NCBI RefSeq assembly: GCF_003790525.1
Contig: NZ_CP033635.1
Source of the DNA: Escherichia coli
GTDB taxonomy: Bacteria > Pseudomonadota > Gammaproteobacteria > Enterobacterales > Enterobacteriaceae
Reading direction: 5' to 3' (one strand)
DNA: 64,000 bases
Position 1 is the first letter of the stretch; each line of letters opens with the position of its first letter. The position numbers are program-made. Below are positions 25,701-43,700 of this stretch, in pieces.

Positions 25701-28700
25701 GAACTGGTGAAAACCGGTTATGCAGTGAAACCGATCGCCGGTCGCTGTGGTAGCAATATCGACCTGGTCAGCCATCATGAAGAGGTGCTGGACAAAACCA
25801 GCGGTAAATTTGCCGAGCAGAAAAACATCTATCAGCAACTGTGGTGTTTGCCGAAAGTGGACGGTAAATACATTCAGGTATGTACCTTCACCGTTGGCGG
25901 CAACTACGGTGGGACGTGTTTGCGCGGTGATGAATCACTGGTCATCAAAAAAGAGAGTGATATTGAACCGTTAATTGTGGTGAAAAAGTAATACATGTTG
26001 TGGCAACCCCGTACTGATTATGAAGAATAATCAGTACGGGGATTAATCAAAACATTCAATATTTATATATTCCAATATTTATTCATTTTATATGTGAATA
26101 TATTAACCAACAGAATACCTGTGTTTTGATTATTTCTAAAGGTTTTGAATGAATGCTTATTGTCTGATACACAAGAAATAACACGCTTTTTATCGTTAAA
26201 AAATGATATTTCACTTTGCCCATGCCGTTAAAGTCACTGATAATGCGTCCGTTCGTAAATTCAAAATGGCGTAATCTAATATATGCTAAATTTATTTGTT
26301 GGCCTTGATATATACACAGGGCTTTTGTTATTACTTGCTCTGGCATTTGTGTTGTTCTACGAAGCAATCAATGGTTTTCATGACACGGCGAATGCGGTGG
26401 CAACCGTTATTTATACTCGTGCCATGCAACCACAACTTGCTGTGGTGATGGCGGCATTTTTTAATTTTTTTGGCGTGTTATTGGGCGGACTTAGCGTTGC
26501 CTATGCCATTGTCCATATGTTGCCAACCGATTTGTTGCTGAATATGGGGTCAACCCACGGTCTGGCGATGGTCTTTTCCATGCTGCTGGCGGCGATTATC
26601 TGGAACCTGGGAACGTGGTTCTTTGGTTTACCGGCCTCCAGTTCGCACACCTTGATTGGTGCGATTATCGGCATCGGTTTAACCAACGCGCTGTTAACCG
26701 GCTCATCGGTGATGGATGCGTTAAACCTGCGTGAAGTGACCAAAATTTTCTCCTCGCTGATTGTTTCCCCTATCGTCGGCCTGGTCATTGCGGGTGGTCT
26801 GATTTTCCTGCTGCGCCGTTTCTGGAGCGGGACGAAAAAGCGTGACCGTATTCACCGCATTCCGGAAGATCGCAAAAAGAAAAAAGGCAAACGTAAGCCG
26901 CCATTCTGGACGCGTATTGCGCTGATTGTTTCCGCTGCGGGCGTGGCGTTTTCGCACGGCGCGAACGACGGGCAGAAAGGGATCGGCCTGGTGATGCTGG
27001 TACTGGTGGGGATTGCCCCTGCTGGCTTCGTCGTCAATATGAACGCGTCCGGCTATGAAATTACCCGTACCCGCGATGCCGTCACCAACTTCGAACACTA
27101 CCTGCAACAGCATCCTGAACTGCCGCAGAAGTTGATTACGATGGAACCTCCATTGCCTGCGACATCGACTGATGGCACGCAAGTAACAGAGTTTCACTGT
27201 CATCCGGCAAATACCTTTGATGCGATTGCGCGCGTTAAAACGATGCTGCCAGGCAATATGGAAAGTTACGAGCCGTTAAGCGTGAGTCAGCGCAGCCAGC
27301 TGCGCCGCATTATGCTGTGCATCTCTGATACCTCCGCGAAGCTGGCGAAACTGCCAGGCGTCAGTAAAGAAGACCAGAACCTGCTGAAAAAACTGCGCAG
27401 CGATATGTTAAGCACCATTGAGTACGCTCCGGTGTGGATCATCATGGCGGTAGCACTGGCGCTCGGCATTGGCACCATGATTGGCTGGCGTCGTGTAGCG
27501 ATGACCATCGGTGAGAAGATTGGTAAGCGCGGCATGACGTATGCGCAAGGCATGGCGGCACAAATGACGGCGGCAGTGTCTATCGGCCTTGCCAGTTATA
27601 TTGGGATGCCCGTCTCCACAACACACGTACTCTCATCTGCCGTAGCAGGAACGATGGTGGTGGACGGCGGTGGGTTACAGCGTAAAACGGTAACCAGCAT
27701 CCTGATGGCGTGGGTGTTTACTTTACCGGCGGCGATTTTTCTTTCTGGTGGGTTGTACTGGATAGCATTGCAGTTGATTTAACCTTCCTGAAAATGCCCG
27801 GTCCTGGCGATCGGGCATTTCCATTTTTCACTAGTGATAACCACGCGCGGTCATAAAATCCATTATCGCTTTTTCCGCATCAACTAGCACTTGTTCCAGC
27901 GGTTGATTGGCATTGATATCAACCAGTTGCGCGCCTCCAAAGGTTAACTGTGGCGTTATGGCAATCTTCCTCGCCAGCGATTCCCGTTTATGGTCGGGTT
28001 TACGCGCGCAGGCAACTTCAAGGTCAACATTGAGTTTGATGACCAGATCAGGTTTATGGCTCGCCATCCAGTGAAACGCTTTACGCTCCTGGCTTGCCAG
28101 CCATGAGACAAAACGACCACCTTCAACGTTAGGCGGAAACACCGTACCATCGTAAGCGCCAGGAATTTGGTCCTGAGGATAACGGTCGGTTAGAACAATT
28201 AACCCGCGACGACGACAGGCAAGCATATGACGAAAGCGCAGTAAGCGACGGGCGACAAACGCTGTAATTACCAGCGCCGGAACAGGGCCAGGCAATTTTT
28301 TTGCTGTTTTCACCTGATTTCGTTCAATTGTTTTATGTAAGGATTTTCCCATCAACGGTAATTTTGTCACTGCACGACCGACATTTCCGGCCTGTTTTCC
28401 TAAATGAACTCTTTCGGCTGCACCATATTTTTCGACAACGGTAATGAGATGTTCACACACCGTTGACTTGCCTGAACCATCGCTACCAATAACGGCAATT
28501 AATGGAGGTGTTATTGACTGCATGAATATATCCTTTAATTTAAATATCCATTAAAAATATTTATTTGGTTAATATGTTTTTATGAAAGCGTAATTCAGGT
28601 CAATGTCACAATTAACCATTGTCACAATAAGGTTGAACGGATATTCTGAGCACGGACCACGTAATATTCAATACATTATTTGCTGCCGGGTTTTTCGTGA

Positions 28701-40700: not shown

Positions 40701-43700
40701 GATGTCATGGATCCTCGAAACCAATACAGGCATGAATAACATGCTGGAACGCATTGGGGCAGAGCCGTACAAGCGTTACCGATTGTATGAAAAGCAGATT
40801 TAATACCAGATCCTGTTAAGCGCAGGGGCGATCCCTCGCCCCTCGGGGAAAGGGTTAGGGTGAGGGTGAAAACTCGGCTCACATTCCCACCTTGTTCATC
40901 TCCAGCGGCACCGCCGAGCGAATCAAATGGTGGCCTTCCAGCTCGATATCGTGGAGATTCTTTTTCACGGTCCGCACATGATCGCGTGCTGCGCGCTGGG
41001 CGACGTGCGGCAGCCGCTGCAACACCGCGTTGTAGATCCGCGCATGCTGGCGATCGATCTGCTTTTTTTGCTGTGGTCGATGGTAGAGATTATTTACGCT
41101 GGCAAACACTGAATTAAACATCAGATCGGTCAATGATTGCAGCGTAAACACCAACACCTGATTGTGAGAAGCCTGACAAATGGCGAGATGGAAAGCGTGA
41201 TCCAACTGCGCATGTTCGATCAGCGAAATCTCTTTGTTGTTCTCACTGGCGGCGAGCATTTTTTCATAACAGCGGGTTATCACAACAAAATCAGCCTGGG
41301 TTCCCAGCGTTGCCGCCAGCCTTGCCGATTCACCCTCCAGCAATGCGCGAACGTCGAGCAGATCGTACAGCGTTCGCGGCTGCGTACTGAACAGATGGAT
41401 CAGCGGGCTGGTGTCCTGCACCCGATTAAGCCGTGCGACACGAGAATCGCGACCCTGCGCCGTTTCAATAATCCCGCGCCCGCGCAGCACGGTCAGCCCT
41501 TCACGCAGTGCGGAGCGTGAGAAGCCGAGCTTTTCACACAGTCGACGTTCCGAGGGAAGCGGCTGACCGACCTTCAGTACGCCGTCGATAATTAACCGTT
41601 CGATACTCTCTGCAACCACTTCGCAAATAGGGCGACGTTCATCTTTCATTCCCGGACCTCGTGCACAGGTAGGACCAATTTTTCTGTTCTTAACTCGCAA
41701 AACACGCACATCACGCAAGTGATTATGTTACATCAATTTAACATTAAGTTAACCAGGACAAGGTCACAGAGCTGGAAAAAAAATGGTCTGACCGGTAGCT
41801 AAAGAGATAGACGAAAACGAAAAGCCCGCTTAATAACTGTTCACAGAAGCAGCGCGAAAAAATCAGCTGCCACACAACACAACAAAGCGAACCCTACTCA
41901 TGAGCATCTTGTACGAAGAGCGTCTTGATGGCGCTTTACCCGATGTCGACCGCACATCGGTACTGATGGCACTGCGTGAGCATGTCCCTGGACTGGAGAT
42001 CCTGCATACCGATGAGGAGATCATTCCTTACGAGTGTGACGGGTTGAGCGCGTATCGCACGCGTCCATTACTGGTTGTTCTGCCTAAGCAGATGGAACAG
42101 GTGACGGCGATTCTGGCTGTCTGCCACCGCCTGCGTGTACCGGTGGTGACCCGTGGTGCAGGCACCGGGCTTTCTGGTGGCGCGCTGCCGCTGGAAAAAG
42201 GTGTGTTGTTGGTGATGGCGCGCTTTAAAGAGATCCTCGACATTAACCCCGTTGGTCGCCGTGCGCGCGTGCAGCCGGGCGTGCGTAACCTGGCGATCTC
42301 CCAGGCCGTTGCGCCGCATAATCTCTATTACGCGCCGGATCCGTCCTCACAAATCGCCTGTTCGATTGGCGGCAATGTGGCGGAAAATGCCGGTGGCGTT
42401 CACTGCCTGAAATATGGTCTAACCGTACATAACCTGCTGAAAATTGAAGTGCAAACGCTGGACGGCGAGGCGCTGACGCTGGGATCGGACGCGCTGGATT
42501 CGCCTGGTTTTGACCTGCTGGCGCTGTTTACCGGATCGGAAGGTATGCTCGGCGTGACCACCGAAGTGACGGTAAAACTGCTGCCGAAGCCGCCCGTGGC
42601 GCGGGTGCTGTTAGCCAGCTTTGACTCGGTAGAAAAAGCCGGACTTGCGGTTGGTGACATCATCGCCAATGGCATTATCCCCGGCGGGCTGGAGATGATG
42701 GATAACCTGTCGATTCGCGCGGCGGAAGATTTTATTCATGCCGGTTATCCCGTCGATGCCGAAGCGATTTTGTTATGCGAACTGGACGGCGTGGAGTCTG
42801 ACGTACAGGAAGACTGCGAGCAGGTTAACGACATCTTGTTGAACGCGGGTGCGACTGACGTCCGTCTGGCACAGGACGAAGCAGAGCGAGTACGTTTCTG
42901 GGCCGGTCGCAAAAATGCGTTCCCGGCGGTAGGACGTATCTCCCCGGATTACTACTGCATGGATGGCACCATCCCGCGCCGCGCCCTGCCTGGCGTACTG
43001 GAAGGCATTGCCCGTTTATCGCAGCAATATGATTTACGCGTTGCCAACGTCTTTCATGCCGGAGACGGCAACATGCACCCGTTAATCCTTTTCGATGCCA
43101 ACGAACCCGGTGAATTTGCCCGCGCGGAAGAGCTGGGCGGGAAGATCCTCGAACTCTGCGTTGAAGTTGGCGGCAGCATCAGTGGGGAACATGGCATTGG
43201 GCGCGAAAAAATCAATCAAATGTGCGCCCAGTTCAACAGCGATGAAATCACGACCTTCCATGCGGTCAAGGCGGCGTTTGACCCCGATGGTTTGCTGAAC
43301 CCAGGAAAAAACATTCCCACGCTACACCGCTGTGCTGAATTTGGTGCCATGCATGTGCATCACGGTCATTTACCTTTTCCTGAACTGGAGCGTTTCTGAT
43401 GCTACGCGAGTGTGATTACAGCCAGGCGCTGCTGGAGCAGGTGAATCAGGCGATTAGCGATAAAACGCCGCTGGTGATTCAGGGCAGCAATAGCAAAGCC
43501 TTTTTAGGTCGTCCTGTCACCGGGCAAACGCTGGATGTGCGTTGTCATCGCGGCATTGTTAATTACGACCCGACCGAGCTGGTGATAACCGCGCGTGCCG
43601 GAACGCCGCTGGTGGCGATTGAAGCGGCGCTGGAGAGCGCCGGGCAAATGCTCCCCTGCGAGCCGCCGCATTATGGTGAAGAAGCCACCTGGGGCGGGAT

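What the first reader, a model, noticed from the sequence alone, without database searches (positions are those of the whole stretch)
27831..40803. Intact ~13 kb putative membrane-lipid biosynthesis and export locus between pitB and glcC
Between yghT and yghO the window carries a coherent, tightly packed gene set. The plus-strand run is yghS-yghR-yghQ (MOP flippase), a 274-aa unknown, a YtfJ-like periplasmic protein and an LptF/LptG-like permease pair. It is convergent with a minus-strand, translationally coupled operon of fatty acyl-AMP ligase, SDR reductase, ACP and a serine-palmitoyltransferase-like alpha-oxoamine synthase, which in turn is divergent from a full-length YghO GNAT-like N-acyltransferase. 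From memory, K-12 has only yghT/S/R, a shorter yghQ and a 5'-truncated yghO pseudogene flanking an IS5 copy, so the middle ~8-9 kb seen here would be the ancestral content that K-12 lost. An acyl-activating enzyme, a carrier protein, an amino-acid/acyl condensing enzyme, a ketoreductase and an N-acyltransferase together are the enzyme set needed for a ceramide/sphingolipid-like or related N-acylated amino-lipid; the permeases and flippase would move it across the envelope. I know of no functional characterisation of this locus in E. coli, but I cannot search the literature here.
Basis: partly seen in the sequence, partly recalled or inferred. Interest (0 to 1): 0.9.

Follow-up and report, generated by a model that had tools for sequence, protein, structure and literature searches.

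The report
E. coli sphingolipid synthesis and export locus
This 13-kb gene cluster is real and intact, and it is the already published ceramide (sphingolipid) synthesis and export locus that most E. coli strains carry and K-12 lost; what remains unknown is the lipid it makes in its native host and the role of six accessory genes.

Summary
All 13 ORFs lie at the stated coordinates. A K-12-type genome has 8,386 bp (window 31315-39700) replaced by IS5. That 8.4-kb segment is present in 4,063 of 5,426 complete E. coli genomes, and every gene is under purifying selection (dN/dS 0.02-0.32).

Padilla-Gómez et al. 2022 (PMC9386255) list the same five genes in BL21(DE3) as aasR, epi/cerR, acpR, spt and aca/yghO. 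They showed that AcpR carries 4'-phosphopantetheine and that AasR+AcpR+SPT from E. coli make 3-oxo-sphinganine. A 2026 preprint draws the UTI89 operon next to those of C. crescentus and S. wittichii and says lptF2/lptG2 occur in many gammaproteobacterial sphingolipid loci; it shows in Caulobacter that LptF2/G2 bind LptB and are tied to sphingolipid export.

My tests agree:
- Spt scores above NCBI's SPT cut-off.
- YghO is a tandem GNAT, 47% identical to the Caulobacter segnis protein at the bCerS position.

What I add concerns an accessory set found almost only in Enterobacterales:
- YghT/S/R are three thymidylate-kinase-like P-loop proteins.
- YghQ is a MOP flippase.
- YtfJ2 is a periplasmic paralogue of YtfJ.

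These stay clustered with the core genes through several rearrangements. The native product and the conditions of expression are unreported.

The parts
27831..28523 (-). yghT: P-loop protein of the nucleoside/nucleotide-kinase fold, a paralogue of YghS and YghR. Proposed, not shown, to act as a phosphotransferase on the lipid head group.
   Evidence: ORF. The dTMP-kinase model scores only 25.5 bits against a cut-off of 83. It is 36% identical to YghS and 33% to YghR, with Walker [15 protein letters not shown] and ARKPDH conserved. dN/dS is 0.03-0.06.
28697..29410 (+). yghS: second P-loop kinase-like paralogue, transcribed divergently from yghT.
   Evidence: Its 1,297 homologues are mostly in Enterobacterales. 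A 55%-identical copy lies between spt and the bCerS gene in a betaproteobacterial MAG, L038.
29442..30200 (+). yghR: third P-loop kinase-like paralogue.
   Evidence: Pfam gives only weak AAA/P-loop matches. It is 44% identical to YghS.
30246..31595 (+). yghQ: membrane protein of the MOP (Wzx/MurJ-type) flippase superfamily. Proposed to flip the lipid across the inner membrane. K-12 lacks its 3' end from window 31315 onward.
   Evidence: NCBIfam MOP flippase model at 1.4e-8, below its cut-off. Homologues carry Pfam Polysacc_synt. Multiple hydrophobic segments. yghQ-like genes sit next to spt in L038, L039 and L046.
31595..32419 (+). orf274: soluble, basic, all-helical protein with a CHAD-like fold, found almost only in Enterobacterales. 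Proposed to bind a phosphate-rich ligand.
32431..32991 (+). ytfJ2: secreted (periplasmic) YtfJ-family paralogue placed just upstream of lptF2. Role unknown.
   Evidence: TIGR01626 scores 216 bits against a cut-off of 151. N-terminal hydrophobic signal-like segment. In these loci it appears only in Enterobacterales.
33022..34092 (+). lptF2: divergent second copy of the LptF permease. Proposed to extract sphingolipid from the inner membrane.
   Evidence: TIGR04407 scores 320 against 230. It scores only about 94 bits against Enterobacterales LptF structures, and the coupling-helix Glu (DSEIT) is kept. Among full-length non-enterobacterial loci, 32 of 48 have lptF2 or lptG2 within 10 kb of the YghO homologue.
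34089..35168 (+). lptG2: divergent second copy of the LptG permease and partner of LptF2. The locus encodes no ATPase.
   Evidence: TIGR04408 scores 301 against 240. The coupling-helix Glu (NSELT) is kept. Caulobacter LptF2/G2 bind LptB (preprint).
35166..35200 (.). Hairpin of 16 pairs in the 34-bp gap between the convergent lptG2 and spt genes. Likely a bidirectional terminator.
35203..36375 (-). spt: serine palmitoyltransferase. Condenses L-serine with acyl-AcpR to give 3-oxo-sphinganine.
   Evidence: NF047599 scores 600 against 500. Best PDB relatives are Sphingomonas SPTs at 8e-112. H137, D210, H213 and K244 align with H159, D231, H234 and K265 of the S. paucimobilis enzyme. Activity of the BL21 orthologue is shown in PMC9386255.
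36375..36623 (-). acpR: dedicated acyl carrier protein, overlapping spt by 1 nt.
   Evidence: ACP models at 1e-8. LGLESI serine motif. The BL21 orthologue incorporated radiolabelled beta-alanine, the precursor of 4'-phosphopantetheine (PMC9386255).
36655..37569 (-). cerR (epi): extended-SDR reductase of the 3-keto group.
   Evidence: SDR/epimerase models. TGATGFIG and YANSK motifs. 36% identical to the C. segnis gene lying between aasR and acpR.
37566..39290 (-). aasR: fatty acyl-AMP ligase that loads AcpR. The start follows RefSeq; the longest ORF runs to 39317.
   Evidence: NF006624 scores 872 against 600. E. coli AasR supported 3-oxo-sphinganine formation with E. coli AcpR but not with Caulobacter AcpR, from which the authors infer selective acylation (PMC9386255). 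A natural bCerS-FAAL fusion exists, P0311.
39291..39660 (.). Very AT-rich 370-bp region between the divergent aasR operon and yghO. Presumed to hold the promoters and control sites.
   Evidence: Sequence. GC is 0.41 around 39000-39999. Only weak sigma-70 matches, no more than chance would give.
39661..40803 (+). yghO (aca/bCerS): tandem-GNAT N-acyltransferase that adds the second acyl chain. K-12 lacks its first 13 codons.
   Evidence: No Pfam match. AF2 pLDDT 95.8. Foldseek top hits are tandem GNAT proteins at 1e-15. 47% identical to the C. segnis protein at the bCerS (CC_1154) position. 80% identical in Serratia and Pluralibacter. PMC9386255 lists it as aca, ECD_02850.
31315..39700 (.). The 8,386-bp segment that IS5 replaces in K-12-type genomes.
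   Evidence: At least 80% of it is present in 4,063 of 5,426 complete E. coli genomes.

Best explanation
This is the E. coli copy of the proteobacterial sphingolipid system: a dihydroceramide pathway plus its own envelope-export machinery.

Steps shown experimentally for the E. coli BL21 orthologues:
- AasR and its own AcpR work as a matched pair. The authors infer that AasR acylates AcpR, the dedicated carrier protein.
- Spt condenses acyl-AcpR with L-serine to give 3-oxo-sphinganine.

Steps inferred by orthology with Caulobacter:
- YghO, a tandem GNAT (bCerS), N-acylates the long-chain base on the cytoplasmic side.
- CerR, an extended SDR, reduces the 3-keto group to give dihydroceramide.
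- LptF2/LptG2 encode no ATPase of their own. They borrow the housekeeping LptB and extract the lipid from the inner membrane for delivery to the outer membrane.

Steps that are my own inference from fold and gene neighbourhood:
- YghQ, a MOP flippase, moves the lipid across the inner membrane.
- YghT, YghS and YghR are three thymidylate-kinase-like P-loop proteins with intact catalytic motifs. Together with the CHAD-like orf274 they build or handle a phosphorylated, anionic head group. They take the place of the unrelated CpgABC head-group enzymes of Caulobacter.
- YtfJ2 acts in the periplasm alongside the permeases.

The locus is probably silent or weakly expressed in laboratory culture. It is nevertheless kept by selection in about three quarters of E. 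coli strains.
For: Core enzymes:
- HMM scores are above the curated cut-offs for SPT, FAAL, LptF, LptG and YtfJ.
- SPT catalytic residues are conserved.
- ACP serine and SDR motifs are present.

Experiments on the E. coli proteins (PMC9386255):
- AcpR incorporated labelled beta-alanine, the precursor of 4'-phosphopantetheine.
- AasR+AcpR+SPT from E. coli gave 3-oxo-sphinganine in vivo.
- SPT preferred palmitoyl-AcpR in vitro.
- yghO and ECD_02852 are listed as aca and epi.

Orthology:
- C. segnis shows the order aasR-cerR-acpR-spt ... lptF2-lptG2-yghO, with 47% (YghO), 51% (Spt) and 36% (CerR) identity.
- YghO has a tandem GNAT fold.
- In 55 of 58 full-length loci from alpha-, beta-, gamma- and deltaproteobacteria and Gemmatimonadetes, spt-operon genes or lptF2/G2 lie within 10 kb of the YghO homologue.
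- Natural fusions exist: bCerS with a FAAL, and bCerS with a His-box lipid hydroxylase-like domain.

Transport:
- The coupling-helix Glu is kept in both LptF2 and LptG2.
- Caulobacter LptF2/G2 bind LptB and can be deleted only when the anionic sphingolipid is absent.

Accessory set:
- Five modules, {yghT | yghS-yghR}, {yghQ-orf274-ytfJ2}, {lptF2-lptG2}, {aasR-cerR-acpR-spt} and {yghO}, appear in at least four different orders or orientations in Escherichia, Serratia/Mangrovibacter, Erwinia endophytica and Rosenbergiella. They always remain clustered.
- Kinase and flippase homologues sit between spt and bCerS in a betaproteobacterium.
- orf274 has a CHAD fold.

Selection:
- dN/dS is 0.02-0.32 for all genes where it could be computed.
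- The K-12-deleted segment is present in 4,063 of 5,426 genomes.
Against: - I found no report of a ceramide or any sphingolipid in wild-type E. coli or another member of the Enterobacterales.
- BL21(DE3) carries the locus, yet hosts with empty vectors or only some of the genes gave an ordinary TLC lipid profile.
- K-12 lost the core genes without any known defect.
- The roles I give YghT/S/R, orf274, YghQ and YtfJ2 rest only on fold, motifs and neighbourhood.
- orf274 matches no CHAD sequence model, and the kinases have no identified substrate.
- No LptC- or LptA-like gene is in the locus.
- CerR has no recognisable signal peptide, although the Caulobacter enzyme is reported to be periplasmic (PMC11087976).
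Confidence: 0.8

Rival explanations
1. The core genes do make ceramide, but the plus-strand genes (yghT/S/R, yghQ, orf274, ytfJ2) belong to an unrelated envelope or polysaccharide function and merely lie next to them.
For: RefSeq calls YghQ a 'lipopolysaccharide biosynthesis protein' and YghT/S 'dTMP kinase'. None of the six genes has a homologue among the characterised Caulobacter head-group genes; CpgB, for example, is an LCB5/DAG-kinase-type enzyme. Most non-enterobacterial sphingolipid loci lack these genes. K-12 kept yghT/S/R after losing the core.
Against: The accessory modules stay next to spt and yghO through at least four rearrangements in Enterobacterales. They also appear between spt and bCerS in a betaproteobacterium and beside the spt operon in Pseudomonas marginalis. 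orf274 and ytfJ2 sit inside the same tightly packed transcription unit as lptF2/G2. The dTMP-kinase name rests on scores far below the cut-off.
Confidence: 0.12
2. In E. coli the locus is a silent evolutionary leftover that no longer gives a product of physiological importance.
For: BL21(DE3) host controls show no visible sphingolipid. About a quarter of complete genomes lack the core: 4,063 of 5,426 retain it. K-12 lost it through IS5 with no known phenotype. The control regions are AT-rich, which is compatible with silencing.
Against: All genes are intact in phylogenetically distant strains, with dN/dS of 0.02-0.32 at dS up to 0.4. YghO is 80% identical between E. coli and Serratia. Gene content is kept across genera. 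The three cloned E. coli enzymes are active.
Confidence: 0.08
3. The pathway makes a different serine- or amino-acid-derived acyl product, such as an alpha-hydroxyketone signal, an N-acyl amino lipid or a sulfonolipid-like compound, rather than a sphingolipid.
For: Alpha-oxoamine synthases are a broad family. The protein also matches BioF, Kbl, CqsA-type and cysteate acyltransferase entries at lower scores. The residue equivalent to Arg378 of the S. paucimobilis enzyme is Leu.
Against: Only the SPT model exceeds its cut-off. The Leu/Val at that position is shared by 10 of the 12 representative orthologues I checked; the motif search did not retrieve the C. segnis or Hyphomicrobiaceae sequence. 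[quoted passage not shown] The partner genes match the ceramide pathway one for one.
Confidence: 0.03

Closest known systems
Caulobacter crescentus sphingolipid locus (CC_1152-CC_1168 / CCNA_01212-01226): Spt, AcpR, AasR, CerR, bCerS, LptF2/G2/C2, CpgABC
   Same: It has the same five ceramide genes, with the same aasR-cerR-acpR-spt operon order. bCerS is encoded next to an LptF2/LptG2 pair, neither locus encodes an ATPase, and a putative flippase is present.
   Different: E. coli has no homologue of the head-group genes CpgA/B/C, CC_1152, CC_1153 or CC_1158, and no LptC2. In their place it carries three thymidylate-kinase-like P-loop proteins, a CHAD-like protein and a YtfJ paralogue. The lipid product is known for Caulobacter (ceramide phosphoglycerates) and unknown for E. 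coli.
E. coli BL21(DE3) ECD_02850-ECD_02854 (aca/yghO, aasR, epi, acpR, spt), Padilla-Gómez et al. 2022, PMC9386255
   Same: It is the same locus in another strain, and it supplied the enzymes that were tested experimentally.
   Different: That work covers only the first three proteins. The passages I read do not discuss the plus-strand genes (yghT/S/R, yghQ, orf274, ytfJ2, lptF2/G2) or native production.
LptB2FG lipopolysaccharide extractor
   Same: LptF2 and LptG2 pass the LptF and LptG family models and keep the coupling-helix glutamates that contact LptB.
   Different: They are highly divergent second copies, scoring about 94 and 143 bits against enterobacterial LptF and LptG. They are encoded without lptB, lptC or lptA, and the proposed cargo is a sphingolipid rather than LPS.
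CHAD domains (polyphosphate-binding helical domains, e.g. Ricinus CHAD 6qv5, PptA 6rn5, YgiF)
   Different: It matches no CHAD sequence model, it sits in a lipid locus, and ligand binding is untested.
Thymidylate / nucleoside-monophosphate kinases
   Same: YghT/S/R align to most of the dTMP-kinase model and keep the Walker A motif, a DRY-type motif and a basic lid-like motif.
   Different: Their scores of 25-31 bits are far below the 83-bit cut-off. There are three paralogues in a lipid locus, and all are basic (pI 9.6-9.9). The RefSeq name 'dTMP kinase' is not justified.

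Membership tests
Bacterial (proteobacterial) ceramide pathway Spt-AcpR-AasR-CerR-bCerS | A PLP-dependent alpha-oxoamine synthase of the SPT type, with the catalytic Lys, His and Asp | tested here: met
   NF047599 scores 600 bits against a cut-off of 500, while BioF and Kbl fall below theirs. H137, D210, H213 and K244 align with H159, D231, H234 and K265 of 2jg2.
Bacterial (proteobacterial) ceramide pathway Spt-AcpR-AasR-CerR-bCerS | A dedicated ACP gene directly upstream of spt, plus a dedicated acyl-ACP synthetase of the FAAL type | tested here: met
   acpR overlaps spt by 1 nt. ACP models and the Ser motif are present. FAAL NF006624 scores 872 against 600. Biochemistry is in PMC9386255.
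Bacterial (proteobacterial) ceramide pathway Spt-AcpR-AasR-CerR-bCerS | A bCerS-type N-acyltransferase orthologous to Caulobacter CC_1154/CCNA_01212 | tested here: met
   47% identity over residues 8-380 to the C. segnis gene that follows lptF2-lptG2. Tandem GNAT fold. Named aca in PMC9386255.
Bacterial (proteobacterial) ceramide pathway Spt-AcpR-AasR-CerR-bCerS | A CerR-type NAD(P)-dependent reductase | tested here: met
   Extended-SDR matches. TGxxGxxG and YxxxK motifs. 36% identical to the C. segnis gene between aasR and acpR.
Bacterial (proteobacterial) ceramide pathway Spt-AcpR-AasR-CerR-bCerS | Ceramide or a derived sphingolipid is actually produced by the native host | not testable with these tools
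   No report was found. BL21 host controls show none on TLC.
LptB2FG-type lipid extractor | A paired LptF-like and LptG-like permease with coupling-helix Glu residues | tested here: met
   TIGR04407 scores 320 against 230 and TIGR04408 scores 301 against 240. The DSEIT and NSELT motifs align with the coupling helices of solved LptF and LptG.
LptB2FG-type lipid extractor | A cognate ABC ATPase (LptB) and LptC encoded with, or bound to, the permeases | tested here: not met
   The locus contains no ABC ATPase and no LptC-like gene. Use of the housekeeping LptB is inferred from Caulobacter pull-downs.
CHAD domain | The CHAD helical fold | tested here: met
CHAD domain | A match to the CHAD sequence family (Pfam) | tested here: not met
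   None of the 30 family members gave a Pfam CHAD hit.
CHAD domain | Binding of polyphosphate | not testable with these tools
   The protein is basic and has many invariant Arg, Lys and His, but this is only suggestive.
dTMP kinase (the RefSeq name for YghT and YghS) | A score above the equivalog cut-off of the dTMP-kinase models | tested here: not met
   25.5, 25.4 and 30.9 bits against 83.25 for TIGR00041. PDB thymidylate kinases match only at E about 0.1.
MOP (Wzx/MurJ) flippase superfamily (YghQ) | A polytopic membrane protein that matches MOP/Polysacc_synt models | tested here: met
   NF007773 at 1.4e-8 across residues 18-434, below the equivalog cut-off and so a superfamily-level match only. 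Pfam Polysacc_synt is on the Serratia and Pluralibacter orthologues. Hydrophobic segments are present.

The most novel reading that the evidence does not exclude
The accessory set, found almost only in Enterobacterales, comprises three thymidylate-kinase-like phosphotransferases, a CHAD-like protein that binds phosphate-rich ligands, a MOP flippase and a periplasmic YtfJ paralogue. On this reading it converts ceramide into a previously undescribed phosphorylated, possibly multiply phosphorylated, anionic sphingolipid. LptB2F2G2 then places that lipid in the outer membrane of most E. coli strains under conditions not reproduced in the laboratory. E. coli, the reference organism for envelope biology, would then have a conditional second LPS-like outer-leaflet lipid.
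Probability: 0.2. Interest if true: 0.8.

Novelty: already known. Interest (0 to 1): 0.35.

Why it matters
The locus is published, so the finding is not a discovery. It still points at a real gap. About 75% of complete E. coli genomes carry a selected, intact sphingolipid synthesis and export system; BL21(DE3) (per PMC9386255), UTI89 (per the 2026 preprint) and LF82 are among the carriers. Yet E. coli membranes are always described as free of sphingolipids. K-12, the strain on which that description rests, is a deletion mutant.

Bacterial sphingolipids affect outer-membrane barrier function, polymyxin and phage sensitivity, and host immunity in other species. Finding the conditions of expression and the final lipid would therefore matter for envelope biology, for host-microbe work, and for anyone using BL21 as a 'sphingolipid-free' expression host.

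The accessory genes give concrete, testable candidates for a new head-group chemistry.

Tried and rejected
- Pfam scans of orf274, YghO and YghR gave nothing useful. A scan of every member of the orf274 alignment also found no CHAD hit.
- PDB sequence searches for orf274, YghO, YghT/S/R and YtfJ2 gave only chance-level or P-loop-only hits.
- I considered that YghT/S/R might be PPK2-type polyphosphate kinases, because of the CHAD neighbour, or homologues of the Caulobacter ceramide kinase. No PPK2 model matched even at E of 10 or less, and CpgB is an LCB5/DAG-kinase-type enzyme. Both ideas were dropped as family assignments.
- A defence-island reading was rejected. PADLOC and PHROGs gave only P-loop matches.
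- Rfam found no RNA family in 25-43 kb.
- The promoter scan was no better than shuffled sequence.
A 16-sequence alignment worked.
- Stankeviciute et al. 2022 and Olea-Ozuna et al. 2021 could not be retrieved. Anything they say about E. coli is not included here.
- Literature searches for native sphingolipids in E. coli or Enterobacterales, and for yghQ/R/S/T together with sphingolipid, found nothing.

Full report
**1. Observation**

The window is 100% identical over the 12,973-bp interval to E. coli CREC-544. RefSeq annotates that strain, in order, as yghT, yghS, a hypothetical protein (YghR), 'lipopolysaccharide biosynthesis protein' (YghQ), a hypothetical protein (274 aa), YtfJ family protein, lptF, lptG, spt, acyl carrier protein, NAD-dependent epimerase/dehydratase, fatty acyl-AMP ligase and yghO. 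The flanks are pitB and glcC.

The genes are tightly packed. Start and stop codons overlap at yghQ/orf274, lptF2/lptG2, aasR/cerR and acpR/spt. A 16-pair hairpin fills the 34-bp gap between the convergent lptG2 and spt.

A K-12-type genome (L002) aligns up to window 31314. A 1,194-bp IS5 follows, and the alignment resumes at 39701. So 8,386 bp are missing, yghQ loses its 3' end, and yghO loses 13 codons.

At least 80% of the deleted segment is present in 4,063 of 5,426 complete E. coli genomes. At least 80% of the whole interval is present in 4,051.

**2. What the genes are**

- **Spt.** The alpha-oxoamine synthase scores 600 bits on NCBI's serine palmitoyltransferase model, against a cut-off of 500. 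It falls below the cut-offs of BioF, Kbl, ALAS and CqsA-type models. Its best solved relatives are Sphingomonas SPTs (8e-112). The PLP lysine and the His/Asp/His triad align. The residue equivalent to Arg378 of the Sphingomonas enzyme is Leu. Leu or Val at that position is shared by 10 of the 12 representative orthologues I checked; the motif search did not retrieve the C. segnis or Hyphomicrobiaceae sequence.
- **AasR.** The ligase passes the fatty acyl-AMP ligase model, 872 against 600.
- **AcpR.** The 82-aa protein is an ACP with the serine motif.
- **CerR.** The 304-aa protein is an extended SDR with TGxxGxxG and YxxxK motifs.
- **YghO.** It has no Pfam match. The AlphaFold model is confident (pLDDT 95.8), and its best structural matches are tandem-GNAT acyltransferases at E about 1e-15. 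The family is large, with 6,502 representative clusters. It is very conserved in Enterobacterales, at 80% identity to Serratia and Pluralibacter.
- **LptF2 and LptG2.** The two permeases pass the LptF and LptG models. They are nonetheless very divergent from the housekeeping proteins, scoring about 94 and 143 bits against enterobacterial structures. Both keep the coupling-helix glutamates.

**3. The locus is already in the literature**

Padilla-Gómez et al. 2022 (PMC9386255) name the BL21(DE3) genes as follows:
- ECD_02851: aasR
- ECD_02852: epi
- ECD_02853: acpR
- ECD_02854: spt
- yghO / ECD_02850: aca

They state that these five dihydroceramide genes are clustered together only in C. crescentus and E. 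coli BL21. Their experiments give these results:
- AcpR(Ec) incorporated labelled beta-alanine, the precursor of 4'-phosphopantetheine.
- AasR(Ec) supported product formation with AcpR(Ec) but not with AcpR(Cc).
- SPT(Ec) prefers palmitoyl-AcpR over palmitoyl-CoA.

A 2026 preprint (10.64898/2026.04.12.717747) draws the UTI89 sphingolipid operon beside those of C. crescentus and S. wittichii. It notes that lptF2 and lptG2 occur in many alpha- and gammaproteobacterial sphingolipid loci. In Caulobacter it shows that LptF2 and LptG2 bind each other and the single LptB. It also shows that they can be deleted only when the anionic sphingolipid is not made.

RefSeq already names the gene spt.

**4. 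My own comparative test**

I scanned one genome per species with a YghO alignment and obtained 80 loci. I then searched them with all 13 E. coli proteins.

- In Caulobacter segnis the order is aasR-cerR-acpR-spt ... lptF2-lptG2-yghO. The YghO homologue is 47% identical and sits at the bCerS position.
- Of 58 loci with full 10-kb flanks, 55 have spt-operon genes or lptF2/G2 next to the YghO homologue. These span alpha-, beta-, gamma- and deltaproteobacteria and Gemmatimonadetes.
- Natural fusion proteins join bCerS to an AasR-like ligase and to a His-box lipid-hydroxylase-like domain.

**5. The accessory genes**

YghT, YghS, YghR, YghQ, orf274 and YtfJ2 are found almost only in Enterobacterales. 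Within that order the five modules appear in at least four different orders and orientations, in Escherichia/Pseudocitrobacter/Hafnia, Serratia/Mangrovibacter, Erwinia endophytica and Rosenbergiella. They always remain adjacent. Outside the order:
- A betaproteobacterial MAG has a yghQ-like gene and 55-56%-identical yghS/yghR genes between spt and bCerS.
- Pseudomonas marginalis has two yghR-like genes beside its spt operon.
- Luteibacter has orf274- and yghQ-like genes about 9 kb from its yghO homologue.

**YghT/S/R.** They are mutual paralogues, 33-44% identical, with intact Walker A, DR(Y/F)PQ and ARKPDH motifs. They are basic and soluble. They match only dTMP-kinase models across most of their length, at scores far below the cut-off. 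So they belong to the nucleoside/nucleotide-kinase fold, but their substrate is unknown. They are not homologues of the Caulobacter ceramide kinase CpgB, which is of the LCB5/DAG-kinase type.

From this I infer, but have not shown, that these proteins build or handle a phosphorylated head group. That would fit the finding in Caulobacter that the LptF2/G2 system matters specifically for the anionic sphingolipid.

Many non-enterobacterial loci carry a different candidate head-group gene instead: a nucleotidyltransferase-like ORF of about 270 aa between bCerS and lptF2.

**6. Is the locus alive?**

All 13 genes are intact in LF82 and in a Gambian isolate. Between the window and these strains, dN/dS is 0.02-0.32 for every gene where it could be computed, at dS up to 0.4.

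Against this, the BL21(DE3) hosts in PMC9386255 carry the chromosomal locus yet show an ordinary lipid profile unless the genes are over-expressed. I also found no report of native sphingolipids in E. coli or its relatives. The control regions are AT-rich.

The most economical reading is a conditionally expressed system kept by selection.

**7. Verdict**

The novelty is low, because the locus is a known sphingolipid locus whose first steps have been characterised. The open points are the native product, the conditions of expression, and the accessory kinase/CHAD-like/flippase/YtfJ set found almost only in Enterobacterales, for which this analysis supplies testable assignments.

Noticed in passing
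Proteins P0311, P0252 and P0241 (metagenome representatives of the YghO family): Natural fusions occur in the family. P0311 joins bCerS (3-374) to an AasR-like fatty acyl-AMP ligase (387-932). P0252 joins a His-box fatty-acid-hydroxylase-like membrane domain to bCerS. P0241 is a tandem double bCerS. The ligase fusion hints that the N-acyl donor may come from a FAAL/ACP route rather than from acyl-CoA.
   Followed up: partly
L015 11079-11939, L018 11082-11942, L020 11153-12016, L022 11119-11931, L064 11168-11992, L083 11132-11929, L046 11166-11966: In non-enterobacterial sphingolipid loci a conserved ORF of about 270 aa lies between the bCerS gene and lptF2. It has an N-terminal 'VLAGDRG...DPVA' motif and looks like a nucleotidyltransferase. 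The E. coli locus has no counterpart. It may be a head-group enzyme.
   Followed up: partly
window 40810-40893: A GC-rich repeat-like element of about 75 bp (...GGGTTAGGGTGAGGGTG...), which from memory resembles a boxC/REP-type repeat, lies between yghO and glcC. The K-12-type genome L002 lacks it.
   Followed up: no
window 27831-29410 and 33022-35168: RefSeq naming looks over-confident. YghT and YghS are called 'dTMP kinase' on scores of about 25 bits against an 83-bit cut-off. The divergent second-copy permeases are named lptF and lptG as if they were the housekeeping genes.
   Followed up: yes
window 16446-21421, 24129-25991, 50789-55372 and 56805-62570: The window also has large ORFs in the positions expected, from memory of the K-12 map, for the hyb hydrogenase operon and gss, a 1,527-aa ORF the size of SslE/YghJ, and a run of ORFs the size of type II secretion genes. 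Only gss is confirmed by annotation; I analysed none of the others. This neighbourhood is also partly degraded in K-12.
   Followed up: no
Protein P0152 (E. coli, 280 aa): This protein is annotated as type II secretion protein GspM, carries Pfam PF04612, and is 97% identical to orf274 over 81% of orf274. It suggests a deletion chimera joining the T2SS region to this locus in some strains.
   Followed up: no
L005/L006 (Pluralibacter gergoviae) compared with window 26283-27782: In Pluralibacter the same locus sits beside uspA, uspB and a PHO4-family phosphate transporter. In E. coli it sits beside pitB, which is a paralogue of pitA. Pluralibacter also has a DJ-1/PfpI-like gene inserted between lptG2 and spt, and one isolate additionally has a LuxR-type regulator and a zinc-ADH-type gene there.
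   Followed up: no
L049 (Luteibacter yeojuensis) 11122-19806: Four large ORFs whose sizes suggest an RND efflux operon (not verified) separate the yghO homologue from orf274- and yghQ-like genes. This is the only orf274 homologue I saw outside Enterobacterales (51% identity).
   Followed up: partly
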